Below, one piece after another: positions 9,313 to 42,000 of a DNA stretch of 42,000 bases; positions within the stretch are counted from its first letter, which is position 1; every line of letters starts with the position of its first letter. This DNA comes from a virus. Its lineage: Duplodnaviria; Heunggongvirae; Uroviricota; Caudoviricetes. The notes under the pieces are model-generated. The model had not been told where the DNA came from. It made no database searches and saw nothing but the letters and a program-made list of their open reading frames with translations. Where the stretch lies: IMG/VR virus record IMGVR_UViG_2909262264_000004; one strand, given 5' to 3'. Position numbers and translations under genes: made by a program.

Positions 9313-9316
9313 ACCA

Positions 9317-12415: not shown

Positions 12416-12617
12416 TGCAAAATGGCATCTAAATCGATCACGGTTTGGCATTCGAATCGATCATGATTTGGCATCCATCTCCGATCACAGTTTGGCATCA
12501 CAATCGATCACGATTTGGCATGCTTCCGATCATTGATTGGCATCCTGCCAGTCACTCCGGGAATTAACTCTTTTCACCACAGTCTTCATTGCCGTGTTTA
12601 AACCAGTGGAGACGGCA

Positions 12618-14183
12618 ATGTCCAGAAAGAGAAAATCCAGGAGCACTATGGAAACCTGTTTTAAGATCCTTCAGCTCAAGTTCGACCAGAAGCTGACTAA
12701 CCGTTGTATCGGACTGACGTTACACATCAGCGCCTCAACCGTTTTTGAGGTTCTTGCACGCTTCAAAGCCTCTTCTCTGTCATGGCCATTACCTGCTGAT
12801 ATATCCCATGACACGCTGGAGAAACTCATTTACCCGCCCAAAGACACCTCTGCGTCAGAGCTTGTTATGCCTGACATGCTGTACTTCGATACGGAAATGA
12901 GAAAACCGGGCGTGACGCGCCAGCTGTTGTGGATGGAATACAAGGCACAGGCGAGTGACAAAGCGATGGGATACTCGCACTTCTGCCGTTGCTACCGGGA
13001 GTGGAAAAAAACGCGACGCCTCTCCATGCGCCAGGAGCATCGTGCCGGCGAAAAGCTCTTTATCGACTTCTGCGGTCCTACGGTTCCTGTTATTAATCCG
13101 GACACCGGAGAGATACGCCGCGTGGCAATCTTCGTGGCCGTGATGGGGGCATCCAACTATACCTACGTTGAAGCGTGCGAAGGTCAGGACATGATGTCAT
13201 GGTTAAATGCCCACAGCCGTTGCCTGACCTTCCTGGGCGGCGTGCCGAAGCTGCTCATCCCCGATAATCTCAAAAGTGCAGTCAAAAAAGCCGATCGCTA
13301 TGAGCCTGTCATCAACGACAGTTATCAGGCGCTGGCTGAGCACTATGGCACGGTTATTATCCCGGCCCGCCCGCGCAAACCTAAAGATAAACCAAAAGCA
13401 GAAAACGGCGTCCTCATCGTCGAACGATGGCTTCTTGCCCGCATCCGTAATGAAACCTTCCACACGCTCAGGGCGCTGAATGCGCGCCTTCGGGAGTTAC
13501 TGACGGACATGAATAACCGGCCAATGAAGGGGTACGGCAATCAAACCCGTGCAGAACGCTTCCGCATGCTGGATGCGCCAGCACTCTCTCCGCTGCCTCT
13601 GGCACCTTATGAATACACGGAATACAAAGCCGTGAAGGTTGGCCCTGACTATCACGTTGAATATGCCCGTCACTGGTACTCCGTTCCACACGAACTGGTC
13701 GGTCAGCGTCTGTCACTGAAGGCGGGGCAGTCTGTGGTACAACTCTGGCACAAGGGGCAGTGTGTGGCGCAACATCCGCGCAGCACACATGAATATAAAC
13801 ACACAACCAATCCGCTTCACATGCCAGAGCGCCACCGGCAGCACGGGACATGGACACCGGAACGCCTGATCGAGCAGGGGAAACGTACGGGCCCGTCCAC
13901 AGGCCGGGTGGTTGAATCCATGCTGAAGGCAAAACCCCATCCGGAACTGGCTTATCGTGCAGTTCTGGGGCTGCTGGCACTTCAGAAAAAATACGGCCCG
14001 GAACGACTGGAAAAGGCCTGTTACGTTGCCCTGCACTATAACGCCCCTGACAGACGCTTTATCGACAATCTGCTGCGTCACCATCGGGAGAACCTGGAGC
14101 TTCCATTATCCCGCCAGGGCGAACAACATCCGACATATGCTTCAGAGCATGAAAACCTGCGTGGTCCGGGCTACTACCACTGA
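12618..14183 (+). CDS. istA: IS21-family transposase IstA
   Basis: ATG at 12618 with ggaga RBS; N-terminal HTH, central DDE region; upstream of and overlapping istB as in IS21-family elements. Confidence 0.85.
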   Translation: MSRKRKSRSTMETCFKILQLKFDQKLTNRCIGLTLHISASTVFEVLARFKASSLSWPLPADISHDTLEKLIYPPKDTSASELVMPDMLYFDTEMRKPGVTRQLLWMEYKAQASDKAMGYSHFCRCYREWKKTRRLSMRQEHRAGEKLFIDFCGPTVPVINPDTGEIRRVAIFVAVMGASNYTYVEACEGQDMMSWLNAHSRCLTFLGGVPKLLIPDNLKSAVKKADRYEPVINDSYQALAEHYGTVIIPARPRKPKDKPKAENGVLIVERWLLARIRNETFHTLRALNARLRELLTDMNNRPMKGYGNQTRAERFRMLDAPALSPLPLAPYEYTEYKAVKVGPDYHVEYARHWYSVPHELVGQRLSLKAGQSVVQLWHKGQCVAQHPRSTHEYKHTTNPLHMPERHRQHGTWTPERLIEQGKRTGPSTGRVVESMLKAKPHPELAYRAVLGLLALQKKYGPERLEKACYVALHYNAPDRRFIDNLLRHHRENLELPLSRQGEQHPTYASEHENLRGPGYYH

Positions 14184-14199
14184 CAGAAGGAACAACAGT

Positions 14200-14955
14200 A
14201 TGAGTGATAACCTGTTAAACAAACTGACCCAACTGAAACTCCCGGCGATGGCCGGGAGCCTGATACGGCAGCGGGAAACGCCTCAGACCTACGACGAACT
14301 GTCGTTCGAGGAAAGGCTGACGCTGCTGGTTGATGACGAGCTTCTGAGCAGGGAAAACAGCCGTGTGGCACGGTTGAGAAAAAATGCCGGCCTGAAATAC
14401 CAGGCAACACCGGAAGGGCTGCGCTATCCGGCCTCAAGAGGTCTGCGGGCTGAACAGATGAGAGAACTGCTGAACGGTCACTACATAACCCACAGGAAAA
14501 ACCTGCTGATAACCGGTCCGACAGGATGTGGCAAGAGCTGGATAGCCAATGCGCTGGGCGAACAGGCATGTCGACAGAAACACAGCGTCCGGTACTGTAG
14601 AACCGGGCGATTACTGGAACAGCTGGCTCAGGGACGTGTTGATGGCAGCTGGCTGAAATATCTGAAACAGTTGCAAAAAATACAGGTTCTAATCCTGGAC
14701 GATCTGGGGCTGGAACAGTTAAGTAACGCCCAGTGTAATGACCTTCTGGAGCTCATAGAGGATCGTTACGGACAAAGCAGCACGATAGTGGTAAGCCAGT
14801 TCCCGGTAGATAAATGGCATGGTCTGATGGAAAACCCAACAACAGCAGATGCCATCCTGGACAGACTGGTACATAACTCACACAGAGTGGTCCTTCAGGG
14901 AGAGTCCCTGAGGAAAAATCCCCCGACAGTGGAAAGCAGCGAAAAAACGAGTTAA
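14200..14955 (+). CDS. istB: IS21-family ATP-binding helper IstB
   Basis: 251 aa; Walker A GPTGCGKS and Walker B LILDDLG. Confidence 0.85.
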   Translation: MSDNLLNKLTQLKLPAMAGSLIRQRETPQTYDELSFEERLTLLVDDELLSRENSRVARLRKNAGLKYQATPEGLRYPASRGLRAEQMRELLNGHYITHRKNLLITGPTGCGKSWIANALGEQACRQKHSVRYCRTGRLLEQLAQGRVDGSWLKYLKQLQKIQVLILDDLGLEQLSNAQCNDLLELIEDRYGQSSTIVVSQFPVDKWHGLMENPTTADAILDRLVHNSHRVVLQGESLRKNPPTVESSEKTS

Positions 14956-15054
14956 AAAGCGATAGAAAAAGTTAAGTTCCCGGTTGATCGAATGTATGCG
15001 AATCGCTGATCGGACTTCGATGCCAATCCGTGATCGAATAGAGCGGAATACGCA

Positions 15055-15167
15055 GTCAGGCGATAAGGACCATCAAATGTGAATGCACTGAGCGATGATT
15101 CTTTCCTGAGCGCATCAGCGAGATCAATGCGTGAACTCATGCGCACTTTTTTATTTTTTCTGCTCAT
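15055..15167 (-). pseudogene. Portal gene 5' fragment (first 38 codons)
   Basis: Same N-terminus as the portal (MSRKNKKVRMSSRIDLADALRKESSLSAFTFDGPYRLT), then reads into IS-derived sequence (ORF 14952-15167). Confidence 0.7.
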
Positions 15168-15786
15168 CAGAACTCCATAACCGTGAAACGCTCGTTTTCT
15201 CCTTCGCCGCCAATTGGTTCGTTAATGACAGCAAGCATGGTCGCCCACGCAAGGTCGCCGTGGCTGATCCCCCTCGCGCGGTCCGTTTCGTAAGTGATAA
15301 AGCCGCCCGGTGTTTTCACCTTACGCACGGCGTTAAAGGCCGCGACCAGTTCGCGTTCGGCGCGATCGTATTCCCACCGCCCGGCACGCATTATTTGCAG
15401 CATTTTCAGTACCAGCGACCGTTTTGATGACAGCGTGAAGGTGTACGGAATAGCAGCAGGGAAAAACCGTTTCACTATCTGATAAACAGCCTCCCCGTTC
15501 CCGCCCGTCACATCAATACCGATGTGTTCCACGTTGTAGCGACACGTGAACTCTTCAATGACTCTGGCCTGTTCTTCAAACTCCAGCCCCTGAACGCGTC
15601 GCGTCTCCACCGTTCGAAAACGGCCACCAGGAACAGCCGGAGGAACCACCACGGACACAGCGCCGCTGTCGCCGTTGCCACTGCTGCCGTTTGCGTCATA
15701 CCCAATCCATACCGGACGATTTCCCATCGGGCGGGGAGCAAAAGGTTTCCAGTCTTTCCAGTCGTCGTATCCGTCAACGCCGCAGC
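15055..15786. repeat. 732-bp direct repeat, copy 2
   Basis: Duplicate of 11684-12415 immediately right of the IS. Confidence 0.9.
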
Positions 15787-16918
15787 CAATCAGGATATTC
15801 AGGTTAAATGCCGATTCCCCTTCGCGGACAAACTCACACATGTAGAGATTGAGGAACTCGTCTTCGGTGTTTTCATCGCGGATTTCGTCAATATCGGTGT
15901 GTTTCCAGCCGTGATTAACCACATCTTCCAGCGTGACAATCTGCCGCCATGTCCGGTCAGGGCAGATAAGTCCGTTATGCAGCGTTTTCCAGTCCACAGA
16001 AAAACGCTGGCGTTTATGCGTGGCCTTTTTCTCGTTCCAGCGGTCGCCGTTCCAGTAGGCGTATGCCTCGTGCGTTTCGGTGGATGGCGTGGAGAAGTAG
16101 GTGCGCCGCAGTCCGCTGAGGGTTGCCATAGCGCCAGCCACCTTGCGCAGTTCAGCAAAGCGACTGACCCAGAAAAATTCATCAAAATAAAAATTGCCCG
16201 TATAGGACTGTGCCGACGCAGCAGAAGTGCCGAGAAAATGCAGCTCTGCGCCGTTGGAGAGGATGATTTTATCGCCCCCTTTCAGCTCCACATCAACTTC
16301 AGCCGCGGCCTTCTGAATAATGCTTTTAAACTGGAACGCCTGACGACGCGACGCAGACAAAAAAATCTGGTTACGCTGGTAAGGTTGCGCCACATCGTCA
16401 CGCAGCGCCATCAGCAGCGCTTCCTGTGCAAAATACCAGGTCGCCCCAATCTGTCGGGATTTCAGGATCATCCTGTTACGTATCCCGGCTTCCCTGCAAA
16501 GGGTCAGGGAGTCAAACCAGCCCCGCTGATGCCACTCCAGCCTGCTGATGATTTTTTCCCGCAGTGCGGCAATCTGTTCCGGCGTGAAATGATTTTTGAG
16601 TTTTTTCGTCCGGCCTTTCTTTCCTGTGACCGTCGCATCCGGCTGGCCATCATGCAGTTTTTTAAGCTGCCGGGTCAGCAGGTCTATTTCCTTAAAGTCA
16701 CCGCCTGTTTTATTCTGTTTTTCAGTAAGCTGGATGAGGCGCGCATCGATGGACTGCGTGACACGCTGCACGGGTGGCGTTTCATCCCACTGGTCGCGTT
16801 TTTTCCACGCATAAATCGTGTTCGGGTTTATTCCCATCAGACGTGATATTTCTGCGGGCGGATAACCCTGCCAGTAAAGTTGCCGCGCACGCTGGCGCAC
16901 AAAAGCGTCCTGAATCAT
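15167..16918 (-). CDS. P: Terminase large (ATPase) subunit (P2 gpP family)
   Basis: 583 aa, close to P2 P length; intact; divergent from the O-N-M-L operon. Confidence 0.9.
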   Translation of the reverse strand: MIQDAFVRQRARQLYWQGYPPAEISRLMGINPNTIYAWKKRDQWDETPPVQRVTQSIDARLIQLTEKQNKTGGDFKEIDLLTRQLKKLHDGQPDATVTGKKGRTKKLKNHFTPEQIAALREKIISRLEWHQRGWFDSLTLCREAGIRNRMILKSRQIGATWYFAQEALLMALRDDVAQPYQRNQIFLSASRRQAFQFKSIIQKAAAEVDVELKGGDKIILSNGAELHFLGTSAASAQSYTGNFYFDEFFWVSRFAELRKVAGAMATLSGLRRTYFSTPSTETHEAYAYWNGDRWNEKKATHKRQRFSVDWKTLHNGLICPDRTWRQIVTLEDVVNHGWKHTDIDEIRDENTEDEFLNLYMCEFVREGESAFNLNILIGCGVDGYDDWKDWKPFAPRPMGNRPVWIGYDANGSSGNGDSGAVSVVVPPAVPGGRFRTVETRRVQGLEFEEQARVIEEFTCRYNVEHIGIDVTGGNGEAVYQIVKRFFPAAIPYTFTLSSKRSLVLKMLQIMRAGRWEYDRAERELVAAFNAVRKVKTPGGFITYETDRARGISHGDLAWATMLAVINEPIGGEGENERFTVMEF

Positions 16919-26604: not shown

Positions 26605-26879
26605 ATATTGGTGGCGATAGTCAGGTCTGGACAACTGCGCAATTTATTTCGTGGCTGGAGAGTCAGGGGGCATTTAACCATCCTTACTGGATGTGCAAAG
26701 GCTCATGGGCTTATGCAAATAATAAGGTCATTACAGATACAGGTTGCGGAAATATTTGTCTTGCAGGTGCTGTGGTGGAAGTTATTGGCACTCGCGGCGC
26801 AATGACCATACGCGTTACTACGCCGAGTACGTCCAGCGGCGGCGGAATTACTAACGCTCAATTCACTTATATTAATCAT
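26577..26879. repeat. 303-bp inverted repeat, left copy (shared tail-fibre block)
   Basis: Matches the reverse complement of 29181-29483 over all stretches compared; encodes ACRAYSAWLNIGG...FTYINH in frame 0. Confidence 0.85.
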
Positions 26880-27437
26880 GGTGATGCTTACGCTCCTGGC
26901 TGGCGACGAGACTACAATACGAAAAACCAGCAGCCTGCATTTGCTTTAGGGCAAACAGGAAGCACTGTCGGAAATGATAAAGCTGTTGGCTGGAACTGGA
27001 ATAGCGGGGTCTATAACGCAAATATTGGTGGCGCATCGACATTAATCCTCCACTTCAATATGAATACGGGGAGCAGCCCTGCTGTACAGTTCCGCGTGAA
27101 TTACAGAAATGGCGGTATCTTTTATCGTTCAGCGCGTGATGGTTATGGCTTTGAAGCTGACTGGTCAGAGTTTTACACCACAACCCGCAAACCCTCTGCG
27201 GGAGATGTTGGTGCATATACGCAGGCAGAATGTAACTCAAGGTTTATTACAGGTATTCGCTTGGGCGGTCTGTCATCTGTTCAGACATGGAATGGTCCCG
27301 GCTGGTCTGACAGGTCAGGTTATGTCGTTACGGGTTCAGTTAACGGAAACCGTGATGAATTAATTGATACAACTCAGGTCATGTATTGTCTGGTATTAAT
27401 GTTCAGGATACAGGGTCCAACTCTGCCGATAATATAG
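26691..27437 (+). CDS. Tail fibre distal (variable) region, currently expressed orientation
   Basis: Frame-0 reading frame is open from 26394 to 27437 (first ATG 26691). Encodes SGGLTFENDSILA... typical of H distal regions, in a different frame from H. Confidence 0.6.
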   Translation: MCKGSWAYANNKVITDTGCGNICLAGAVVEVIGTRGAMTIRVTTPSTSSGGGITNAQFTYINHGDAYAPGWRRDYNTKNQQPAFALGQTGSTVGNDKAVGWNWNSGVYNANIGGASTLILHFNMNTGSSPAVQFRVNYRNGGIFYRSARDGYGFEADWSEFYTTTRKPSAGDVGAYTQAECNSRFITGIRLGGLSSVQTWNGPGWSDRSGYVVTGSVNGNRDELIDTTQVMYCLVLMFRIQGPTLPII

Positions 27438-27506
27438 CGGGCGTTTATTACAGACCCGTTCAAAAGTATATAAATGGCACCTGGTATAATGTAGCGAGCG
27501 TTTAAT

Positions 27507-27890
27507 ATGATGCACTTAAAGAACATAAAAGCGGGTAACGCTAAAACACTGGAACAGTATGAGTTAACAAAGAAACACGGAGTTATCTGGCTTTACTCTG
27601 AGGACGAAAAAAACTGGTATGAGGAACAAAAGAATTTCCAGCCAGACACAATAAAGATTGTTTACGATGCAAATAATATTATTGTCGCCATCACTAAAGA
27701 TGCCTCCACGCTTAACCCTGAAGGTTTTAGTGTCGTTGAGGTTCCCGATATTACAGCCAACCGCCGCGCTGATGATTCAGGAAAGTGGATGTTTAAGGAT
27801 GGAGCTGTAGTTAAACGGATTTATACGGCAAACGAGCAACAACAACAGGCCGAATCGCAAAAGGCTGGGCATCATTTCCGACGAGAATAA
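27507..27890 (+). CDS. Tail fibre assembly chaperone (Tfa, P2 gpG-like); C-terminus out of frame
   Basis: 127 aa; N-terminal ~120 aa identical to the minus-strand copy. The +1 frame continues to about 27982 with a Tfa-like end (..VTFPEQPE). Confidence 0.7.
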
Positions 27891-28012
27891 ACAAAAATTA
27901 ACCGAGTGGATGCTCTATGCGCAGAAAGTCGAATCTACAGACACCTCCAGCCTGCCAGTAACATTTCCCGAACAACCTGAATGAGACAAGGCCCGATAGC
28001 GGGCCTTAATTT

Positions 28013-28615
28013 TTATTCAGGCTTTTGTGGCCATTCAGGATTTGCCGTATCCACACGGCTGACCAGAACACTGTAGCGTTCCCATGCTTCCAGTCGTGTA
28101 CGTTCCTCATCTGTTGCCATATTCAGCCTGACAGCGCGTTCCAGTGGCTGAATAACGCTTTCTGCTTCGGAAAGTAACGCAGCCTTTTGCGATTCGGCCT
28201 GTTGTTGTTGCTCGTTTGCCGTATAAATCCGTTTAACTACAGCTCCATCCTTAAACATCCACTTTCCTGAATCATCAGCGCGGCGGTTGGCTGTAATATC
28301 GGGAACCTCAACGACACTAAAACCTTCAGGGTTAAGCGTGGAGGCATCTTTAGTGATGGCGACAATAATATTATTTGCATCGTAAACAATCTTTATTGTG
28401 TCTGGCTGAAAGTTTTTCACTTCCTCATACCAGTTTTTTTCGTCCTCAGAGTAAAGCCAGATAACTCCGTGTTTCTTTGTTAACTCATACTGTTCCAGTG
28501 TTTTAGCGTTACCCGCTTTTATGTTCTTTAAGTGCATCATATTAAATTGTTTCGTTAGCTGGTATTGCTCTTTTGTTTTAGGGTTGCCAGCAGTAATGTT
28601 TTTTAAGTGCATCAT
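28013..28615 (-). CDS. Alternative tail fibre assembly chaperone (Tfa')
   Basis: 200-aa ORF; likely start at the second [10 protein letters not shown] (28540). First 25 codons are a diverged in-frame duplicate of the N-terminus. Ends ..EWPQKPE. Confidence 0.7.
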
Positions 28616-28648
28616 CGTTAAATACTCCCCGCGTTATACCACGTCCCA

Positions 28649-29182
28649 TTAATGCAATACCAGACAATACATGACCTGAGTTGTATCAATTAATTCATCA
28701 CGGTTTCCGTTAACTGAACCCGTAACGACATAACCTGACCTGTCAGACCAGCCGGGACCATTCCATGTCTGAACAGATGACAGACCGCCCAAGCGAATAA
28801 CTTGCGAGCCGCAAAGCCAGTTCCCGTTATTATCCATGTACGCCTGACCATCGGTGCCATTGGCTGTCCTTGAGTTATTAATCATGTAGATGCCAAATTG
28901 CTTATTTCCCAGACCGCCAATCATAAATTTGCGGTCGGCGTGATTCTGGCGAAGCAACGCCTGAGCGCTATCAGTGTTAACTATATTTTTCCCAAAGATA
29001 GCGTTGTTATCGCGCATCTGAATCCACATACCATTACTGCTGTTAATAGCAAAACGGTCTGAAAGTGTCTCCCCTGAAACATTAAGACCACGCCCCATCG
29101 AAACAGCGCCAGTAGCGTTATTAATCCATAATGGCCTTAATCCGTTATAAGTCCCCATGTTGTCACCGGAGTTTGTCAACAT
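28649..29182 (-). CDS. Alternative tail fibre distal segment (Sv'), silent orientation
   Basis: 177 aa; C-terminal ~47 aa identical to the plus-strand distal segment (IRLGGLSSVQTWNGPGW...). Out of frame (+1) with the shared block at 29181. Confidence 0.6.
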   Translation of the reverse strand: MLTNSGDNMGTYNGLRPLWINNATGAVSMGRGLNVSGETLSDRFAINSSNGMWIQMRDNNAIFGKNIVNTDSAQALLRQNHADRKFMIGGLGNKQFGIYMINNSRTANGTDGQAYMDNNGNWLCGSQVIRLGGLSSVQTWNGPGWSDRSGYVVTGSVNGNRDELIDTTQVMYCLVLH

Positions 29183-29483
29183 GATTAATATAAGTGAATT
29201 GAGCGTTAGTAATTCCGCCGCCGCTGGACGTACTCGGCGTAGTAACGCGTATGGTCATTGCGCCGCGAGTGCCAATAACTTCCACCACAGCACCTGCAAG
29301 ACAAATATTTCCGCAACCTGTATCTGTAATGACCTTATTATTTGCATAAGCCCATGAGCCTTTGCACATCCAGTAAGGATGGTTAAATGCCCCCTGACTC
29401 TCCAGCCACGAAATAAATTGCGCAGTTGTCCAGACCTGACTATCGCCACCAATATTCAGCCATGCGCTATATGCGCGACAGGC
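29181..29483. repeat. 303-bp inverted repeat, right copy
   Basis: Reverse complement of 26577-26879. Confidence 0.85.
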
Positions 29484-29570
29484 CCCAATATTTTTGGTGA
29501 AGGTATCTTTTCCCGGAATATCTGCGCCGTTCTGGTTTTTCTGTAATGCGCCAGAAGCCTTGTTTACCGT

Positions 29571-29596
29571 TTCCTGTAAACCGAGGTTTTAGATAA
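29571..29596. promoter_or_regulatory. gix/pix-like 26-bp invertase crossover site (right)
   Basis: ttcctgtaaaccgaggttttagataa, about 55 bp upstream of the invertase gene. Confidence 0.6.
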
Positions 29597-29650
29597 TGGC
29601 CGTTTCCGGCCTGCATGGCATGATTTGCGCTTTTGGACGGGAGATTCAGC

Positions 29651-30238
29651 GTGCTGATTGGCTATGTAAGGGTATCAACAAATGACCAGAATACAGACCT
29701 GCAACGAAACGCTCTTGTTTGTGCAGGATGTGAACAAATATTTGAAGATAAATTAAGCGGGACAAAGACAGACCGACCGGGATTAAAACGCGCTTTAAAG
29801 CGCCTTCAAAAAGGTGACACGCTGGTTGTCTGGAAACTGGATCGCCTCGGGCGAAGCATGAAACATCTGATTTCTCTCGTCGGGGAACTACGGGAGCGAG
29901 GAATTAATTTTCGCAGTCTGACCGACAGCATAGATACATCTTCTCCAATGGGGCGTTTTTTCTTCCACGTGATGGGTGCCCTGGCTGAAATGGAACGTGA
30001 ATTAATTGTTGAACGTACACTGGCCGGACTGGCGGCAGCACGCGCACGGGGGCGCACAGGCGGACGTCGACCGAAGCTGACAAAAGAACAGCATGAGCAA
30101 ATAGCAAGGCTGATCAAAAACGGGCACGACAGAAAACAACTGGCAATAATTTACGGCATTGGTATATCGACGATTTATCGTTACCACCCCGCAGGAGAAT
30201 CAAGCGGAACAATAGAGAAGAGTCAGGAAACAAAATAA
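29651..30238 (+). CDS. pin: Serine DNA invertase (Pin/Gin/Hin family)
   Basis: GTG start after gggag; N-terminus LIGYVRVSTNDQ with catalytic Ser, C-terminal HTH; near-identical N-terminus to e14 Pin as recalled. Confidence 0.9.
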   Translation: MLIGYVRVSTNDQNTDLQRNALVCAGCEQIFEDKLSGTKTDRPGLKRALKRLQKGDTLVVWKLDRLGRSMKHLISLVGELRERGINFRSLTDSIDTSSPMGRFFFHVMGALAEMERELIVERTLAGLAAARARGRTGGRRPKLTKEQHEQIARLIKNGHDRKQLAIIYGIGISTIYRYHPAGESSGTIEKSQETK

Positions 30239-36016: not shown

Positions 36017-37126
36017 ATGACCGATACCACCATGCAATTGCTCAGTCAGAGCACAGACCCCGTGAAAATGCCGGATTTTGATATTCTCGCGGAGGGGGAA
36101 ACACTGTCCGGCGTGGCAGAGCGCCTGATGAGCCTGTCACTGACCGACAACCGGGGATTTGAAGCGGACCAGCTCACCATCACGCTGGATGATGCGGATG
36201 GTCAGTTGCAGCTACCGCCACGGGGCGCGCGCCTGACGGTTCTCATTGGCTGGAAAGGAGAACCGCTGACAGAAAAAGGCACTTACATTGTTGATGAAAT
36301 CGCACACGAAGGACCGCCGGACAGGCTGACTGTTTCAGCCAGAAGCGCAGATTTTCGGGATGAATTTAACGTTAAACGTGAGGTGTCCTGGCATGATGTG
36401 ACCGTTGAGCGCGTGGTATCCGCCATCGCTCATCGGTACGGTCTGAAACCACAAATCAGCGAAATGCTGATGGATATTGAAATCGACCACGCCGACCAGA
36501 CCGAAGAAAGCGACATGTCCTTCCTTACGCGCATGGCGGAAATGCTGGGCGCAATCACTACGGTAAAAAGCGGTAATCTGTTATTCATCATGCCAGGCGG
36601 TGGCGTGAACGCACAAGGCCAGCCGTTGCCCTCGTTCGCCATCACGCGCAGCAGTGGCGATCGCCATCAGTTCCGCATTGCTGACCGCGAAGCGTATACG
36701 GGGGTACGCGCTTACTGGCTTGATCTTAATTACGGGAAAAAGAAAAAAGTCAGCGTGAAACGCCGCAAACCGCCAAAACCCAAAAAGGAGAAAAGCAGCA
36801 GCCGTGAAGGTGATTATATGGAAGGCGCGGAAGGCAATGTGTTTGTGTTACGCAAGACTTATCAGAACGAGCAGGCAGCAAGACGCGCAGCGGCGGCAAA
36901 GTGGCAGCAGCTACAACGCGGAGCCGCATCATTTTCCATCACGCTGGCGCGTGGACGTGCAGAACTCTACCCCGAAATGCATGGCACGGTAACAGGATTT
37001 AAAAGCGAGATTGATAATCAGGACTGGATTATTGCGAAAGCCGAGCACACCATTGATAACAGCGGCTTTACCACGCAGCTTGAGCTTGAAGCAAAAATCC
37101 CGGAATGGATAGCAGAAACAGAGTGA
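36017..37126 (+). CDS. D: Late gene D protein (P2 gpD family)
   Basis: ATG at 36017 after gggagg; 369 aa; immediately upstream of ogr. Confidence 0.85.
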   Translation: MTDTTMQLLSQSTDPVKMPDFDILAEGETLSGVAERLMSLSLTDNRGFEADQLTITLDDADGQLQLPPRGARLTVLIGWKGEPLTEKGTYIVDEIAHEGPPDRLTVSARSADFRDEFNVKREVSWHDVTVERVVSAIAHRYGLKPQISEMLMDIEIDHADQTEESDMSFLTRMAEMLGAITTVKSGNLLFIMPGGGVNAQGQPLPSFAITRSSGDRHQFRIADREAYTGVRAYWLDLNYGKKKKVSVKRRKPPKPKKEKSSSREGDYMEGAEGNVFVLRKTYQNEQAARRAAAAKWQQLQRGAASFSITLARGRAELYPEMHGTVTGFKSEIDNQDWIIAKAEHTIDNSGFTTQLELEAKIPEWIAETE

Positions 37127-37168
37127 GCAACTTAGAATAGCGGCAGCACCACGTTAAGGGAGGTCGCT

Positions 37169-37429
37169 ATGTTCCGTTGTCCGCTTTGTGGCGCATCTGC
37201 CCGTATCCGCACCAGTCGTTCGGAAAATGATTCAAACACCGTACGGAAAAAATATTACCAGTGTAACAACCTGGAATGCGGCATAAGTTTCTCAACACTG
37301 GAAGCTTTCCATAAATTCACATCGAAACACGCCCCCGGCGTTCACTCTTCAGAAGGTATCCCGTGGCATGAGTTGCCAGCTTCACACAGGGGAAACAATC
37401 AGATGAGTTTGCCTTTACCTCAGAATTAA
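37169..37429 (+). CDS. ogr: Late-gene transcription activator, Ogr/Delta zinc finger
   Basis: MFRCPLCGASARIRTSR...KKYYQCNNLECGISF: C-x2-C ... C-x4-C pattern of Ogr. Confidence 0.85.
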   Translation: MFRCPLCGASARIRTSRSENDSNTVRKKYYQCNNLECGISFSTLEAFHKFTSKHAPGVHSSEGIPWHELPASHRGNNQMSLPLPQN

Positions 37430-37619
37430 CAGGCAGAATTGCCGGAGTAACAAAAAAGCGATAGATTACGCGCGGGTGCCTTTCGGCTGATGGTCGGAGG
37501 GAATACCCGAAGGCCAGATGTGGAAAGGCCCCGGAAAACATTTCTGTTTAACCGAGGCCCTAACCGTCTAACCTTAGCAAGTGATAGGTTAGCGCCTCCC
37601 TGAAAAAGGAGCAAGCGCT

Positions 37620-37760
37620 ATGTCGCAAAAATCGCTTACGGCCATCACGTTCTGCGTGACGGCAATCCTCATCATCTGGATGCTGCACGGTTCGCTGTGC
37701 GAAATACGGATGAGCTTCTGGGGAGCGGAGTTTGCGGCGTTCTTACAGTGTAAGCAGTAA
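37620..37760 (+). CDS. hok: Hok/Gef-family type I toxin-like membrane peptide
   Basis: 46 aa, below the ORF-track cutoff. aaggag RBS; one TM helix then SLCEIR..EFAAFLQCK, matching the Hok/Gef signature. Leader has a 7-bp-stem hairpin (ctaacct..aggttag). Confidence 0.65.
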   Translation: MSQKSLTAITFCVTAILIIWMLHGSLCEIRMSFWGAEFAAFLQCKQ

Positions 37761-37822
37761 GGAAACCGCGACGGGGGAGCAATCCCCCGTCAATCGGTTG
37801 CCAGGGTAAGGTCGATAAGGCA

Positions 37823-37833
37823 CCCTATCTCAC
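37823..37833. repeat. 11-bp direct repeat ccctatctcac (left)
   Basis: Identical copy at 39319-39329; both lie just outside the inverted ~115-bp repeats. Confidence 0.5.
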
Positions 37834-37952
37834 CAATGCCGTTCAGTTAGTTAAGGAATTGAGGTTCGATAGCCCGAACCTCGCGCAGAGGCAATATGAC
37901 CGAAAGCCTGATTCCTTAATGCCCAAGATGAGTCTCTATTCATAAAAGCGCT
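37834..37952. repeat. Terminal inverted repeat, left (~115 bp, internally palindromic)
   Basis: Matches the reverse complement of 39209-39318 with a few mismatches and one 4-nt indel. Contains an 8-bp-stem hairpin (gaggttcg..cgaacctc) and ttaaggaat..attccttaa arms. Confidence 0.7.
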
Positions 37953-38169
37953 TAACTACTCGACATTGGCGGTGTATCCCCCGCATTGTCTGAATGCCGC
38001 CTCTTACCTTTCGCGGTCAACTGACGACTTCTAGTTCTAGAACGCCTTGATTTTTTGTACTTGTACATTGAAAAATAACCATAAATTGTTAGCCTGTGCA
38101 GTAGACTCAGTGGCGGTAACTGGTCAGCATGAAGTGTAAAGTGAATAACGAAGCTCTAAAATTATAGGG

Positions 38170-39003
38170 ATGGTCATGAATAATAAGCTAAAGGTAATTG
38201 AGTTAAATAGTCTTGATCTGTTTCGTAAAGAATTACTAACTACTATAAAGCCAGAGAAAGTAGAGAAATTACTTAGATGGTATCTTCAATCATATGGCGG
38301 TGTTAATTTCAAGTTCGGTTATGACAGACCAATTTTTAGAGCGCGAAAGTGCCCAAATGAATGCGGATATAATAACATCAGTGAGATATATCCCCCTCCA
38401 CCAGAAAAATGTAAAATAGGCCGAATGAATGATGATGGACAAGCTATCTTCTATGGCGCTTATAGTATCGGAACAGCTTTAGCCGAAATTAATGCAAAAG
38501 AAGGGGATTATGTTCACATAGCTCACTTTAAGATGCCGGAAAATTCAGAGTCTGGAATGCGATGTTTTGCTATCGGTGAGGTCTTTAATGTGTATCACGG
38601 TGTAAATACAATTTCAATTGAAGTGTTTAATGAAATTCGCGACATCATTAGCAGAATTGGTAAGGACGACATCCGAGCTTTGCTATCATATTTGTATATG
38701 GATGCCCTTTCTGCTGAGTTGCTTAATAGTATCAATGCCCATGAGGTAAATTATATTTACTCAAGAATTTTTTGCCGTCTTCTTCTTGATAAATACCCTG
38801 ATGTTGATGGTCTTATTTATCCTAGCGCTAAAATAAAAGGGGCCTCAAATATCGCTTTGCGCACAGAAACAGTTAAATCGAGAATGCATTTAGTTGCTAA
38901 TCTTGTGTTTAAAGTAAATAAAATTTATCCATATGGAATAGTAGATTTCAGTATAGTAAAACAAGCCAAAGGACATACATCAGATGGGCGCATCGTTTGG
39001 TGA
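38170..39003 (+). CDS. RES-domain protein (NAD+-targeting toxin family)
   Basis: 277 aa (ATG at 38176 has the better RBS). GRMNDDGQAIFYGAYSIGTALAE and GLIYPSAKIKGASNIAL fit the Arg...Glu...Ser RES signature as recalled. No antitoxin-like ORF adjacent. Confidence 0.55.
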   Translation: MVMNNKLKVIELNSLDLFRKELLTTIKPEKVEKLLRWYLQSYGGVNFKFGYDRPIFRARKCPNECGYNNISEIYPPPPEKCKIGRMNDDGQAIFYGAYSIGTALAEINAKEGDYVHIAHFKMPENSESGMRCFAIGEVFNVYHGVNTISIEVFNEIRDIISRIGKDDIRALLSYLYMDALSAELLNSINAHEVNYIYSRIFCRLLLDKYPDVDGLIYPSAKIKGASNIALRTETVKSRMHLVANLVFKVNKIYPYGIVDFSIVKQAKGHTSDGRIVW

Positions 39004-39208
39004 GCCAAACTTTTAGTTAGCTGATTGAAAAACCGATGCGTCAGTTTGCACTGCATGTGGTGTATGGGAAGCGCGGGCTTGTAGTGCAGGTCATTTCAGA
39101 AGAAGCTAACGAGAAAGCTTAGACATACTGTGACTACTAAACAAGCAGAAAGCCCGTGTTTATGGGGGGCAATCCACACAACAGGCGATGTCGATTAGTT
39201 AATACACT

Positions 39209-39318
39209 TGTATGAATAGAGACTCATTTTTGTGCATTAAGGAATCAGGCTTTCAGTCATCTTGCCTCTGCGCGAGGTTCGGGCTATCGAACCTCAATTC
39301 CTTAACTGAACTACATTG
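39209..39318. repeat. Terminal inverted repeat, right
   Basis: Reverse complement of 37841-37952. Confidence 0.7.
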
Positions 39319-39329
39319 CCCTATCTCAC
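39319..39329. repeat. 11-bp direct repeat ccctatctcac (right)
   Basis: Identical to 37823-37833. Confidence 0.5.
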
Positions 39330-39516
39330 AGCTCTAAATGCAAAAATCCCATGAAACTGTGGGTATTTCATTACACACTGACACTGCTCTACCTTTCTAT
39401 ATGTATCACTCTAAACCAGTTAATCAATTGGCACTTATCAACAACAAAAAATCTGATAAAATTAAAATGTTTTGTAACAAATTTCAGCTTGTAGTGTTCC
39501 AAAGGAGACGGATTAC

Positions 39517-39849
39517 ATGGCATTAATCAAATGTCCTGAATGCCAGAAAGAGGTCAGCGATTCAGCATTATGTTGCCCTGCTTGTGGTAAACAACTGAAA
39601 AAACTTAAGCGTTCATTTTTTGGAAAACTCATTAAATGGGCTTTTATATTTTTTAATATTTTTATGATCTATACACTTTTAGTTGGACTAGGAGGCGCTG
39701 ATGAAATAATAAACAATACCACATCCGATGCCGAAAAAGCTGGGGCAGTTATTGGTACGGGCTTAGGTTTAATTGCCATTGGAGGCTTATGGGTTATTGG
39801 CGATATAATTATCGGAATTTTAGTGTTTCTTACTAAACCAAAGGGATAA
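39517..39849 (+). CDS. Zinc-ribbon membrane protein
   Basis: aaaggaga RBS; N-terminal CPEC...CPAC zinc ribbon then two hydrophobic helices; AT-rich. Confidence 0.5.
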   Translation: MALIKCPECQKEVSDSALCCPACGKQLKKLKRSFFGKLIKWAFIFFNIFMIYTLLVGLGGADEIINNTTSDAEKAGAVIGTGLGLIAIGGLWVIGDIIIGILVFLTKPKG

Positions 39850-39853
39850 TAAA

Positions 39854-40747
39854 ATGAAAAATATGATTTTTTCTATAGGTGCATTATTTATATCAATTAG
39901 TGTACTGCCTGTTCACGCAGCAACTGAACATAAGAATTTCAATGCAGTGCTCCAGTGCCGAGCGATAGAAAACAATAAAGACAGACTTTCTTGTTACGAT
40001 AAGTCAATACAACCGACTCGAACGAAAGTTGCTGAAAAATTTGAAAGCAGGGATCAATGCCCTGATGAGAAAGATGATGACAAACGTTTATCTTGTTATG
40101 ATCGTTTTTTTTCTCCAACATTTACTCCATCTGTAAACTCAAAATCTAAAACGGAAAAGCTAGTAACAACAGAGGCTCAGCAACCAAATCTTTCTGAAAT
40201 ATCTAAATGCCGAGCAGAAAATGATAAAGAAGCCAGACTAAACTGCTACGATAAACTATTCCCACAGAATGAAGCTGTTCAATCTGAATCACAATTAGAG
40301 AAAGCCACAGATGCAGGAAAATGGCACACGTCCATTACTACATCGCCAATTGATGATTCGAAAAATGTAATTTTATCGTTAGAAAGTGATGATTATATCA
40401 GAACTCCATTTGGAGAAGCTGTTACTCCCACTCTGTTTATAGCTTGCCGAGAAAAGAAAACCGAAGTATTTCTTAGTTGGGATGTATATTTAGGCCTTGA
40501 ACAAACCAGCATGCTGTATCGTCTTGATAAACAGAAAGCAGTTGAAAGAAACTGGCTAATATCTACAGATACAAAGGCTGTTTTTTATAAAGGTAATGAT
40601 ATTGATTTCATAAGAAAACTTGCCAACTCACATAAAATGTACACAAAAATAACCCCCTATAATGAAAGCCCTGTAAGTGCAACTTTCAATTTAAGCGGCC
40701 TGTCAAATGCACTAAAACCGCTTCAAGATGCTTGTAACTGGAAATAG
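39854..40747 (+). CDS. Secreted protein with three tandem Cys-containing repeats
   Basis: Signal peptide ending VHA-A; three repeats of C-x(11-13)-(R/K)L(S/N)CYD(K/R); 4 nt after the upstream gene. Confidence 0.5.
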   Translation: MKNMIFSIGALFISISVLPVHAATEHKNFNAVLQCRAIENNKDRLSCYDKSIQPTRTKVAEKFESRDQCPDEKDDDKRLSCYDRFFSPTFTPSVNSKSKTEKLVTTEAQQPNLSEISKCRAENDKEARLNCYDKLFPQNEAVQSESQLEKATDAGKWHTSITTSPIDDSKNVILSLESDDYIRTPFGEAVTPTLFIACREKKTEVFLSWDVYLGLEQTSMLYRLDKQKAVERNWLISTDTKAVFYKGNDIDFIRKLANSHKMYTKITPYNESPVSATFNLSGLSNALKPLQDACNWK

Positions 40748-40770
40748 TATATACCTCCCCAATATCAGAT

Positions 40771-40802
40771 GACAAAACGCCCGTGAAAACGGGCGTTTTG
40801 TC
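40771..40802. terminator. Bidirectional intrinsic terminator
   Basis: Perfect palindrome gacaaaacgcccg-tgaaaa-cgggcgttttgtc. Confidence 0.6.
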
Positions 40803-41004
40803 ATCTGTAACTCGAAAATGTGGTCATTGCGTGGACATACGATGATATAAATCCTTTTATATCAAAAGATTAAACCACTATTATTTTCCTCAACAAGGAT
40901 TTTCACGTTTGTGTTACCTGTATGAGACGAGAGTTAACCGGACAAGTGTGCCATAATCTCGCGGCCAGGCATACTTGCGAAGATTTCAGGTATAAGGATA
41001 CGTA

Positions 41005-42000
41005 ATGATACAACCTATTTCCGGCCCTCCTCCTGGGCAACCACCAGGTCAGGGAGATAACCTGCCGTCTGGCGCGGGCAATCAGCCTTTATCCAGTCAG
41101 CAACGTACTTCGCTGGAAAGCTTAATGACGAAAGTGACCTCACTGACGCAACAGCAAAGAGCAGAACTGTGGGCGGGTATCAGGCACGATATTGGTCTGT
41201 CGGGAGATTCACCGCTGCTTTCGCGTCACTTCCCTGCCGCTGAACATAATCTGGCGCAACGTCTGCTGGCCGCGCAAAAAAGCCATTCTGCCCGCCAGCT
41301 TTTAGCGCAATTAGGCGAGTATTTACGTCTGGGGAATAATCGTCAGGCGGTCACGGATTATATCCGTCATAACTTTGGTCAGACGCCGCTGAATCAGCTC
41401 TCACCGGAGCAATTAAAAACCATTCTCACCCTGTTGCAGGAAGGGAAGATGGTTATTCCGCAACCGCAGCAGCGCGAGGCGACCGACCGTCCTTTATTAC
41501 CGGCGGAGCACAATGCGCTCAAACAGCTGGTGACCAAACTTGCGGCGGCAACGGGGGAACCCAGCAAACAGATCTGGCAATCGATGCTGGAACTTTCCGG
41601 GGTGAAAGATGGCGAGTTAATTCCAGCGAAACTGTTTAACCATCTGGTGACCTGGTTGCAGGCGCGCCAGACGTTAAGCCAGCAAAATACGCCGACGCTG
41701 GAATCACTACAGATGGCGCTAAAACAACCTTTAGATGCCAGTGAACTGGCGGCGTTATCGGCATATATCCAGCAAAAATATGGCCTTTCTGCGCAATCAT
41801 CGCTTTCTTCTGCCCAGGCCGAGGATATTCTTAATCAGCTTTATCAACGGCGGGTTAAAGGGATTGATCCGCGTGATATGCAACCGCTGCTTAATCCTTT
41901 TCCACCGATGATGGACACGTTGCAAAATATGGCAACGCGTCCCGCGCTGTGGATACTGTTAGTCGCGATTATCCTGATGCTGGTCTGGCTGGTTCGTTAG
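41005..42000 (+). CDS. flk: Flagellar regulator Flk (host chromosomal gene)
   Basis: 331 aa; Pro/Gln-rich N-terminus MIQPISGPPPGQPPGQ and C-terminal membrane anchor ALWILLVAIILMLVWLVR match E. coli Flk as recalled. Confidence 0.7.
   Translation: MIQPISGPPPGQPPGQGDNLPSGAGNQPLSSQQRTSLESLMTKVTSLTQQQRAELWAGIRHDIGLSGDSPLLSRHFPAAEHNLAQRLLAAQKSHSARQLLAQLGEYLRLGNNRQAVTDYIRHNFGQTPLNQLSPEQLKTILTLLQEGKMVIPQPQQREATDRPLLPAEHNALKQLVTKLAAATGEPSKQIWQSMLELSGVKDGELIPAKLFNHLVTWLQARQTLSQQNTPTLESLQMALKQPLDASELAALSAYIQQKYGLSAQSSLSSAQAEDILNQLYQRRVKGIDPRDMQPLLNPFPPMMDTLQNMATRPALWILLVAIILMLVWLVR

What the first reader, a model, noticed from the sequence alone, without database searches (positions are those of the whole stretch)
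39517..40747. Two-gene AT-rich operon: zinc-ribbon membrane protein plus secreted protein with triple Cys repeats
The genes are 4 nt apart, both have strong RBS, and the pair ends at a perfect palindromic terminator. The first protein has a cytoplasmic zinc ribbon and two TM helices. The second has a signal peptide and three tandem repeats each with a Cys pair (C-x11-13-RLxCYD), then a larger C-terminal domain. I do not recognise either family. The location between a prophage and flk, with low GC, marks it as accessory.
Basis: seen in the sequence. Interest (0 to 1): 0.45.

Follow-up and report, generated by a model that had tools for sequence, protein, structure and literature searches.

The report
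Phage-carried VasI/DrpB-like envelope gene pair
These two genes are the last cargo genes of a P2-like prophage and encode a membrane anchor plus a secreted partner related to a type VI secretion accessory protein; they probably change the lysogen's cell envelope, perhaps to keep other phages out, but nobody has tested their function.

Summary
There are two co-oriented ORFs 4 nt apart (39517-39849 and 39854-40747), each with an RBS. They are AT-rich (about 35% GC) and end at a perfect 19-bp hairpin.

The interpretation needs correcting in three ways.
- The pair lies inside the P2-like prophage, not between it and flk. It is the last operon before attR (core about 40894-40903) and is 99.4% identical to part of phage P88_4B11.
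- Gene 2 belongs to a known family, Pfam VasI/TagO. It has three Cys-stapled helical hairpins and an IalB/MotY-N-like beta-sandwich. RefSeq already names it TagO.
- Gene 1 is a zinc ribbon fused to a two-helix membrane module that is remotely homologous to the cell-division and Rcs-activating protein DrpB.

No T6SS genes lie nearby in any of 113 related loci. The two proteins act as one unit. They are adjacent in 67 of 80 viral loci, other organisms have single-chain fusions of the same two modules, and one E. coli variant has an analogous zinc-ribbon/two-TM partner. Both genes are under purifying selection.

Function is inferred only. I think the pair is an envelope-acting moron, most likely for superinfection exclusion or defence, possibly through DrpB-like stress signalling. 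It is a new variant of known kinds and moderately interesting.

The parts
39435..39462 (+). Sigma-70-like promoter: -35 TTATCA, 16-nt spacer, extended -10 TGaTAAAAT. It lies about 55 nt upstream of the first ATG.
   Evidence: Consensus scan, 9 of 12 matches with TG, and sequence reading. The upstream 198 bp is retained at about 95% identity in phage 500465-2, which lacks the RES cassette. This is a prediction only.
39517..39849 (+). Gene 1, 110 aa: a cytoplasmic zinc ribbon (C6, C9, C20, C23; nt 39532-39585) plus a DrpB-like two-helix membrane hairpin. TM1 is about nt 39628-39696 and TM2 about nt 39754-39831. N47 is invariant, D96 is nearly invariant, and the C-terminal T106-x-P108 motif is invariant.
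   Evidence: (phrog_6586, 2e-38). Profile-profile comparison with the DrpB family: 90.3%, E 1.5e-6. dN/dS 0.07-0.16.
39854..40747 (+). Gene 2, 297 aa: a Sec-exported VasI/TagO-family protein. Signal peptide nt 39854-39919. Three Cys-stapled helical hairpins (C-x8-RLxCYD) at nt 39938-40006, 40040-40108 and 40190-40258, separated by disordered linkers. IalB/MotY-N-like beta-sandwich at nt 40307-40744, with conserved C198 and C294.
40766..40807 (.). Perfect 19-bp palindrome with a 4-nt loop; intrinsic terminator, probably bidirectional.
   Evidence: -35 kcal/mol, z = -11.2.
40894..40903 (.). attR core CAAGGATTTT, the right end of the prophage. The same bases are codons 2-4 of pdxB in K-12.
   Evidence: Comparison of the window with phage attP (L003), K-12 attB (L026) and the setC-integrated copy (L001).
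37169..37760 (+). Upstream context in the same variable end of the phage: ogr (37169-37429), sok RNA (37474-37633) and hok (37620-37760).
37834..39318 (+). 1.5-kb cassette with terminal inverted repeats of about 115 bp. It carries a lone RES-domain gene (38170-39003) and is inserted between hok and the pair. It is not part of the pair's operon.
   Evidence: The cassette is absent from phage 500465-2 at exactly these boundaries.

Best explanation
**What it is (shown)**
- The pair is the terminal accessory ('moron') operon of a P2-like temperate phage (Peduoviridae, P88/Xuanwuvirus type) integrated at the start of pdxB.
- It encodes a two-part envelope module.
  - Part 1 is an inner-membrane protein. 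Its cytoplasmic zinc ribbon is fused to a two-helix hairpin homologous to DrpB.
  - Part 2 is exported to the periplasm. It is a VasI/TagO-family protein made of three disulfide-stapled helical hairpins on flexible linkers and an IalB/MotY-N-like beta-sandwich.
- The two parts work as one unit at the inner-membrane/periplasm interface.

**How it probably works (inferred)**
- The operon is transcribed in the lysogen from its own promoter and acts on the host envelope for the benefit of the prophage.
- The most likely benefit is blocking entry of competing phages, and possibly other contractile injection devices.
- This could work in two ways.
  - The periplasmic domain interferes directly with penetration.
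  - The DrpB-like module triggers envelope-stress signalling (Rcs/Psp), as overproduced DrpB does.
- It is not a working part of a type VI secretion system.
For: **Phage cargo**
- The pair is 99.4% identical to phage P88_4B11, where the order is gpD-ogr-hok-RES-ZnR-VasI-attP-int.
- The same prophage with the same pair sits at a different chromosomal site in EC190759.
- The att core was mapped.
- Homologues in E. coli, Klebsiella, Enterobacter, Dickeya, Serratia and Brenneria are always the last gene or genes after ogr in P2-like prophages.
- Of 80 IMG/VR loci, 69 have P2 tail genes within 6 kb, and the gene usually ends the viral contig.

**Family assignments**
- VasI family.
- Fold.
- DrpB homology: hhalign 90.3%, with invariant residues matching.
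- The invariant T106 aligns with DrpB T89. T89 is the residue DrpB needs to activate Rcs (PMC11709261).

**The two proteins act as one unit**
- The genes are 4 nt apart.
- ZnR lies directly upstream in 67 of 80 viral loci.
- Single-chain fusions exist: 2TM module, third TM helix, VasI-like domain. These are P0272 and P0293.
- In the 250-aa E. coli variant, a non-homologous zinc-ribbon plus TM2-domain protein takes the partner's place.

**Functional genes with signals for independent expression**
- dN/dS is about 0.15.
- The operon has its own promoter-like site and a strong terminator.
- Its neighbours are hok/sok and RES toxin genes.

**Defence precedent**
- A protein with a VasI-like fold (SDIC4B), not encoded in a T6SS cluster, gave 10-200-fold phage protection on its own (bioRxiv 10.1101/2024.01.28.577318).
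- The same fold occurs in uncharacterised proteins of virulent T4-like phages. This fits a phage-versus-phage periplasmic role.
Against: - There is no experimental datum for this pair.
- PADLOC (2023) finds nothing.
- Identity with SDIC4 could not be tested. It is probably a different lineage, because SDIC4B is said to lack BLAST similarity to VasI and to sit next to BrxR.
- The slot between ogr and attR is not one of the two main P2 defence hotspots (PMC9122126, PMC13586616).
- VasI-like genes also occur alone, without any membrane partner, in many gammaproteobacteria. ZnR genes also occur alone.
- In 46 E. coli genomes the VasI-like gene is annotated as two split ORFs.
- DrpB homology is remote. 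It falls below the NCBIfam cut-off (18.7 against 50 bits).
- The Rcs effect of DrpB is a multicopy phenotype.
Confidence: 0.45

Rival explanations
1. The pair is a lysogenic-conversion module that retunes host envelope physiology rather than blocking phages. The DrpB-like protein would act on the divisome and on Rcs/Psp stress signalling, and the VasI-like partner would act as its periplasmic regulator or sensor. The benefit would be lysogen fitness, for example through capsule, biofilm or stress tolerance.
For: - DrpB homology with conserved functional residues.
- DrpB localises to the septal ring and, in multicopy, activates Rcs and Psp (PMC7648144, PMC11709261).
- Solo ZnR genes are retained in all sampled Pantoea and Serratia rubidaea genomes at former P2 attachment sites. 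This suggests a host-beneficial function that does not depend on a phage.
Against: - The homology is remote.
- The ZnR family has an extra zinc ribbon and conserved N47 and D96 that DrpB lacks.
- The neighbouring genes are toxin/defence-type morons.
- Rcs activation would itself reduce phage adsorption, so this rival overlaps with the best explanation.
Confidence: 0.2
2. The pair serves the phage's own infection cycle. The periplasmic and inner-membrane parts could help tail penetration, DNA entry, lysis timing or exclusion during lytic growth, being made late along with gpD and ogr.
For: - The pair is on the same strand as gpD and ogr, and downstream of them.
- The same fold is present in virulent T4-like phages, which have no lysogenic state.
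Against: - P2 itself and many P2-like phages lack the pair.
- It is separated from ogr by hok/sok, by terminator-like sites and, in this window, by a 1.5-kb cassette.
- It has its own promoter-like site and an atypical GC of 35% against 54%.
- It is retained in prophage remnants on ETEC plasmids.
Confidence: 0.12
3. Gene 2 is a genuine T6SS accessory protein (TagO/VasI) supplied in trans to the host's T6SS, or a decoy that inhibits it, as the RefSeq name suggests.
For: - Clear Pfam VasI membership.
- The same domain plan as EDL933 T6SS VasI, which is encoded between tssH and tssA.
Against: - Only 26% identity to T6SS VasI.
- Below the TIGR03360 equivalog cut-off.
- None of 33 genome loci and none of 80 viral loci have T6SS core genes in the flanks held for each locus (up to 8 kb and up to 6 kb; shorter where the contig ends).
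- Its constant partner is a membrane protein that was not seen among the annotated genes of the one T6SS cluster examined (EDL933).
- The function of TagO in T6SS is itself unknown (PMC13584744).
Confidence: 0.08
4. The pair is a host-interaction or virulence factor, by analogy with Bartonella invasion-associated locus B (IalB).
For: - There is a weak Pfam IalB hit.
Against: - The IalB hit is below the Pfam cut-off, and sequence identity is 14-19%.
- The carriers come from human, animal, wastewater and plant-associated bacteria with no pathotype pattern.
- The protein is predicted to be periplasmic, not surface-exposed.
Confidence: 0.04

Closest known systems
T6SS-associated protein VasI/TagO (Pfam PF11319, TIGR03360), for example EDL933_RS01165 or V. 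cholerae VCA0118
   Same: - Same Pfam family.
- Same plan: signal peptide, a C-x8-RLxCYD hairpin, then a beta-sandwich ending in C-x-W.
- No known function.
   Different: - 26% identity.
- Below the equivalog cut-off.
- Three hairpins instead of one.
- Encoded in a phage, never next to T6SS genes.
- Paired with a ZnR/DrpB-like membrane protein.
DrpB (YedR), an E. coli septal-ring protein and multicopy activator of Rcs and Psp
   Same: - Two TM helices, N-in and C-in, with a loop of about 20 residues.
- Matching conserved motifs: R-x3-GK-x3-W-x-F before TM1 and T-R/K-P after TM2.
- DrpB T89, needed for Rcs activation, aligns with the invariant T106.
   Different: - The homology is remote (hhalign 90%; HMM below cut-off).
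- The phage protein has an added N-terminal zinc ribbon.
- It has an invariant Asn in TM1 and a nearly invariant Asp in TM2.
- It is phage-borne and has a periplasmic partner.
SDIC4 anti-phage system of Serratia (SDIC4A plus the VasI-like-fold protein SDIC4B)
   Same: - Two-gene operon outside T6SS clusters.
- Contains a protein with a VasI-like fold.
- Common in Klebsiella, Salmonella, Enterobacter and E. coli.
- The VasI-like component alone confers phage protection.
   Different: - SDIC4B is reported to have no BLAST similarity to VasI and to sit beside BrxR in the LptG-YjiA island.
- This pair is a clear Pfam VasI member at the end of P2-like phages.
- Sequence relatedness could not be tested here.
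Phage superinfection-exclusion pairs acting in the envelope (T4 Imm and Sp; knowledge from the literature, not tested here)
   Same: Small phage-encoded inner-membrane and periplasm-facing proteins that act on the envelope of the infected or lysogenic cell.
   Different: There is no sequence or fold relationship. This is an analogy only.
IalB (PDB 3DTD) and the N-terminal domain of MotY in the flagellar T ring (PDB 8Z5N, 2ZF8)
   Different: No significant sequence similarity, no Cys hairpins, and a different genomic context.

Membership tests
VasI/TagO (Pfam PF11319) | Match to the family HMM above the gathering threshold | tested here: met
   91.4 bits against 26.5. Residues 118-296 cover profile positions 1-184 of 184.
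[quoted passage not shown] | Score above the equivalog cut-off | tested here: not met
   79.9 bits against a cut-off of 124.2. 26% identity to EDL933 VasI.
VasI/TagO as a T6SS accessory gene | Encoded within or next to a T6SS gene cluster | tested here: not met
   The window is a P2-like prophage followed by flk. None of 33 genome loci and none of 80 viral loci have TssB/C/E/F/G/H/J/K/L, Hcp or VgrG hits in the flanks held for each locus (up to 8 kb and up to 6 kb; shorter where the contig ends). Caveat: the markers come from one E. coli T6SS.
VasI/TagO | Sec signal, Cys-pair helical hairpin (RLxCYD), and a C-terminal beta-sandwich with a conserved Cys pair | tested here: met
   Alignment A1 has invariant C119, R128, L129, C131, D133 and C198, and nearly invariant C294. 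AF2 model.
DrpB (NCBIfam NF038392 / Pfam PF28000) | HMM match above the cut-off | tested here: not met
   18.7 bits against 50. Four homologues carry precomputed PF28000 hits, and others carry weak ones.
DrpB | Homology of the whole two-TM module, with the family's conserved residues | tested here: met
   hhalign A2 against A3: 90.3%, E 1.5e-6, 79 columns. R32/G36/K37/W41/F43/T106/P108 align with DrpB R14/G18/K19/W23/F25/T89/P91.
DrpB | Septal localisation, suppression of delta-ftsEX, multicopy activation of Rcs | not testable with these tools
   These are experimental phenotypes (PMC7648144, PMC11709261).
SDIC4 anti-phage system | Sequence homology to SDIC4A and SDIC4B (S. marcescens AWY87_RS24860 and AWY87_RS12625) | not testable with these tools
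   The sequences are not held. PADLOC 2023 predates SDIC4.
SDIC4 anti-phage system | Association with BrxR in a chromosomal defence island | tested here: not met
   The neighbours are ogr, hok/sok, RES and attR in every enterobacterial locus examined.
P2-like phage defence hotspots (Rousset 2022) | Location between gpA and gpQ, or at the Z/fun locus | tested here: not met
   The pair lies between ogr and attR. A 2026 survey notes only minor hotspots near the att site.
IalB (Pfam PF06776) | HMM match above the gathering threshold | tested here: not met

The most novel reading that the evidence does not exclude
The pair is a phage-encoded trans-envelope sensor-anchor.
- The VasI-like domain sits in the periplasm, tethered through its Cys-stapled hairpins to the DrpB-like hairpin. 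It would detect or obstruct penetration by contractile injection machines such as phage tails, tailocins or T6SS spikes.
- The DrpB-like/zinc-ribbon protein would convert this into an envelope-stress or abortive response, through Rcs/Psp activation or membrane leakage via the conserved TM Asn and Asp.
- If this is true, three families with unknown or poorly understood function would get a first mechanistic handle: VasI/TagO, IalB-like proteins and DrpB.
- It would also suggest that T6SS VasI and the phage protein share an ancestral role at the site where a contractile device crosses the periplasm.
Probability: 0.15. Interest if true: 0.75.

Novelty: new variant of a known kind. Interest (0 to 1): 0.5.

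Why it matters
- VasI/TagO is one of the T6SS accessory proteins still listed as 'function unknown'. DrpB has only multicopy phenotypes.
- In this locus, homologues of both are wired together as a conserved, selected unit carried by P2-like phages across Enterobacterales, and they are fused in other bacteria. That gives a compact two-gene system in E. coli for finding out what the VasI fold and the DrpB module do.
- It also shows that the RefSeq name 'T6SS-associated protein TagO' is misleading for hundreds of prophage genes.
- It adds the region between ogr and attR as a cargo slot of P2-like phages, holding hok/sok, RES and this pair.
- If the pair excludes phages, it would extend the SDIC4 precedent to bona fide VasI-family proteins.

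Tried and rejected
- **PADLOC models:** no hit for either protein or for RES.
- **Rfam on 36900-41100:** only sok.
- **PDB by sequence:** nothing. No solved VasI structure was found.
- **SDIC4 comparison:** the preprint's supplements hold locus tags but no sequences, so homology could not be tested.
- **afdb50 fold library:** unavailable.
- **Accession search in the literature:** no paper mentions these proteins.
- **Conserved-neighbour search around 33 genome loci:** outside Enterobacterales there is no recurrent neighbour, so context gives no lead there.
- **P0051 (zinc ribbon joined directly to the VasI-like signal peptide):** considered as a fusion but discounted. It is a single sequence that looks like an in-frame deletion, and the signal peptide might still be cleaved. 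The 2TM-TM3-VasI fusions (P0272, P0293) are the stronger evidence.
- **Lipoprotein:** rejected. There is no lipobox Cys after the signal peptide in any homologue.
- **Chance ORFs or decaying remnant in this window:** rejected on conservation and dN/dS.
- **My first ogr marker was mis-framed.** The 'ogr' flags in that table are unreliable and are not used.
Full report
**1. The observation**

- Gene 1 is preceded by AAGGAGA (39502-39508). It ends at TAA 39847-39849.
- Gene 2 starts 4 nt later and is preceded by AAGGGA (39841-39846).
- A perfect 19-bp inverted repeat (40766-40784 / 40789-40807) folds at -35 kcal/mol, z = -11.2 against shuffles.
- A promoter-like site lies 55 nt upstream of gene 1. 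It has TTATCA, a 16-nt spacer and an extended -10 TGaTAAAAT, at 39435-39462.
- GC is 0.34-0.38 over the pair, against 0.52-0.56 in the flanking phage tail genes and flk.

The Cys motif occurs three times, at C35/C47, C69/C81 and C119/C131.

Both genes are real.
- Each has dozens to hundreds of homologues.
- Nei-Gojobori dN/dS against the 92-95% identical copy in phage 500465-2 is 0.16 for gene 1 and 0.15 for gene 2. Against Dickeya it is 0.07 and 0.13.

**2. Where it sits: inside the prophage**

The window is almost entirely a P2-like prophage. It contains an integrase (1-1020), gpA, ParM-type partition genes, portal, terminase, tail genes and gpD.

A DNA search shows that the pair is 99.4% identical to part of the sequenced phage Escherichia virus P88_4B11 (Xuanwuvirus, Peduoviridae). 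In that phage the order is gpD-ogr-hok-RES-ZnR-VasI-attP-integrase.

The window stays identical to the phage up to base 40903. The same prophage with the same pair is integrated next to setC/selC in strain EC190759, and the window is identical to that copy up to base 40900.

Comparison with K-12 places the att core, CAAGGATTTT, on codons 2-4 of pdxB. The pair is therefore the last operon before attR and travels with the phage.

It occurs in 236 of 5426 complete E. coli genomes. Nine of the 237 places are on plasmids, and one of these was examined: on ETEC plasmid pCss165 only an ogr-hok-ZnR-VasI remnant is left.

**3. What the proteins are**

*Protein 2*
- It scores 91.4 bits on Pfam VasI (PF11319, cut-off 26.5). 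Its third hairpin plus its C-terminal domain cover the whole profile.
- It stays below the NCBIfam VasI equivalog cut-off, at 79.9 against 124.2 bits.
- It is 26% identical to the VasI encoded between tssH and tssA in the EDL933 T6SS cluster.
- RefSeq nevertheless names it 'T6SS-associated protein TagO'. PHROGs has it as phrog_1848, function unknown.
- An AlphaFold2 model built on 61 homologues gives a confident beta-sandwich for residues 152-297 (pLDDT above 90). It also gives three helical hairpins separated by disordered linkers.
- Homologues come in three lengths: about 297, 250 and 210-218 aa. These carry three, two or one hairpin in front of the same domain.
- The four Cys pairs and the AxA-type signal peptide fit a soluble periplasmic protein. 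There is no lipobox.

*Protein 1*
- It has a C6-x2-C9-x10-C20-x2-C23 zinc ribbon and two long helices.
- Its family is highly conserved (65% mean column identity). N47 in TM1 is invariant, D96 in TM2 is nearly invariant, and the end motif T106-x-P108 is invariant.
- The NCBIfam DrpB model hits weakly (E 0.0016). Some homologues carry precomputed Pfam DrpB (PF28000) hits.
- I built a DrpB family alignment and compared profiles. The result was 90.3% probability, E 1.5e-6, over the entire two-TM module.
- The invariant residues of both families coincide. R32/G36/K37/W41/F43 align with DrpB R14/G18/K19/W23/F25, and T106/P108 align with T89/P91.

[quoted passage not shown] In multicopy it also activates the Rcs phosphorelay and Psp, and T89 is the one tested residue required for Rcs activation (PMC11709261).

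**4. The two proteins form one unit**

- In 80 IMG/VR viral loci carrying a VasI-like gene, 67 have the ZnR gene directly upstream, 69 have P2 gpD or sheath genes within 6 kb, and none has T6SS markers. In most, the gene is the last one on the viral contig.
- The same arrangement is seen in Klebsiella, Enterobacter, Dickeya, Serratia liquefaciens and Brenneria prophages at several different chromosomal sites.
- A full HMM search with the ZnR profile finds 316 clusters at E <= 1e-10.
  - Several are single polypeptides: 2TM module, third TM helix, then a periplasmic domain.
  - In P0272 and P0293 that domain is VasI-like. P0272 reaches Pfam VasI at 38 bits. hhalign to A1 gives 99.4% and 95.8%.
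  - In others the domain is an OB fold. In P0246 and P0264 the C-terminal end resembles LprI/DUF1311 by eye; no family search confirmed this.
- In the E. coli 250-aa variant the neighbouring gene encodes a non-homologous protein with the same plan: a zinc ribbon plus two TM helices of the TM2 family.

These are Rosetta-stone and analogous-replacement arguments for a physical or functional complex. My inference is that the Cys hairpins dock the secreted protein onto the membrane partner. This is not shown.

**5. It is not a T6SS component**

None of 33 genome loci (flanks up to 8 kb) and none of 80 viral loci (flanks up to 6 kb) contains T6SS core genes. The flanks are shorter where a contig ends.

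Outside Enterobacterales the closest relatives are solitary genes with no recurrent neighbour. Some sit beside integrases of other mobile elements.

A 2026 review still lists TagO/VasI as 'unknown' (PMC13584744).

**6. What it most likely does**

*Shown:* phage cargo, an autonomous-looking transcription unit, predicted envelope location, coupling of the two parts, and purifying selection.

*Inferred:* function. I favour an envelope-acting moron that protects the lysogen, for four reasons.
- It shares the phage's variable end with hok/sok and a RES toxin cassette.
- A VasI-like-fold protein outside T6SS clusters (SDIC4B) protects E. coli and Serratia 10-200-fold against phages, and does so alone. 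SDIC4 is now among DefenseFinder subtypes.
- The same fold is present in uncharacterised proteins of virulent T4-like phages. The analogy with their envelope-acting exclusion proteins rests on my own knowledge.
- The partner is DrpB-like, and DrpB can switch on Rcs and Psp. Rcs-driven capsule is a known barrier to phages and T6SS attack (my knowledge, not tested here).

There are also points against.
- PADLOC is silent.
- The slot is not a major P2 defence hotspot.
- Both genes also exist alone.
- The VasI-like gene is split in one E. coli lineage.

I put about 0.9 on the identity and architecture and about 0.35-0.45 on the protective function. The rivals are envelope or division retuning for lysogen fitness, a role in the phage's own cycle, a true T6SS accessory or decoy, and an IalB-like virulence role. 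They are listed with the tests that would separate them.

**7. Novelty**

Both families are known by name, and the genes are already annotated, so nothing here is categorically new.

Three things appear to be unreported in the literature I could search.
- Bona fide VasI-family genes are recurrent terminal cargo of P2-like phages.
- They are coupled, and elsewhere fused, to a DrpB-homologous membrane module carrying a zinc ribbon.
- The T6SS label is therefore misleading for these genes.

I rate it a new variant of a known kind, with interest 0.5.

Noticed in passing
window 37834-39318: A 1.5-kb cassette bounded by inverted repeats of about 115 bp (37834-37948 / 39207-39318) carries a single RES-domain (NAD+ phosphorylase-type toxin) gene at 38170-39003. 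No upstream antitoxin ORF is recognisable. Phage 500465-2 lacks exactly this segment. It looks like a non-autonomous mobile cassette inserted 75 bp after hok.
   Followed up: partly
window 11796-16918: An IS21-family element (IstA 12537-14183, IstB 13957-14955) sits between the portal and terminase genes. A 210-aa duplicate of the terminase C-terminal nuclease domain (11796-12428) lies on one side and the full-length terminase (15167-16918) on the other. The insertion therefore seems to have come with a partial duplication of the target gene.
   Followed up: partly
window 40894-40903 and K-12 locus L026 4840-4852: The att core overlaps codons 2-4 of pdxB. Integration therefore separates pdxB from its GTG start and promoter. 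At attL the phage sequence would supply an in-frame TTG eight codons upstream. attL is outside the window, so this was only read from the phage attP sequence.
   Followed up: partly
L021-L023 (Pantoea), L066-L068 (Serratia rubidaea), L063-L065 (S. liquefaciens), L008-L011/L017 (Klebsiella, Enterobacter): Solo ZnR genes with no VasI partner sit exactly at chromosomal sites that serve as P2-like attachment sites in other genera: cueR-ZnR-copA and cpxP-ZnR-fieF-pfkA. In one Pantoea genome a P2-like integrase follows the solo ZnR gene directly. They look like retained right-end remnants of prophages, or like the source from which phages captured the gene.
   Followed up: partly
L062 (ETEC plasmid pCss165, NC_022333.1) and the 80-90% identity class in E. 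coli: In 46 E. coli genomes the VasI-like gene is annotated as two ORFs (93 and 188 aa). On ETEC plasmids only an ogr-hok-ZnR-VasI remnant of the prophage remains.
   Followed up: no
L005 8830-9126 (E. coli, 250-aa VasI-like variant): In this variant the VasI-like gene is inverted. Its neighbour is a 98-aa protein with an N-terminal CxxC...CxxC zinc ribbon fused to a TM2-domain (PF05154) two-helix module. The architecture matches ZnR, but the membrane family is unrelated.
   Followed up: partly
P0246, P0264, P0207: The ZnR/DrpB-like two-TM module is also fused, through a third TM helix, to periplasmic OB-fold (tRNA_anti-like) domains (P0246 and P0207). P0246 and P0264 have C-terminal ends that resemble LprI/DUF1311 by eye. 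A DUF1311 protein is also encoded at the edge of the EDL933 T6SS cluster, and an LprI protein lies next to the orphan VasI-like gene of Photobacterium (L018).
   Followed up: no
window 8353-9628: The prophage encodes a ParM-type actin-like segregation ATPase and a small partner. This is unusual for an integrating P2-like phage and may allow plasmid-like maintenance.
   Followed up: no
window 26691-30238: A serine DNA invertase (29633-30238) lies next to oppositely oriented tail-fibre and tail-fibre-assembly genes (28013-29182). This is the usual invertible host-range switch. The FI-FII-E-T-U tail block is on the opposite strand to the other late genes, as in P88_4B11.
   Followed up: no
ZnR residues N47 and D96 (window about 39655-39657 and 39802-39804): An invariant Asn and a nearly invariant Asp lie in the middle of the two TM helices of the ZnR family and are absent from DrpB. 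Polar residues buried in the membrane usually mark oligomerisation or ion or proton handling. No explanation so far.
   Followed up: no
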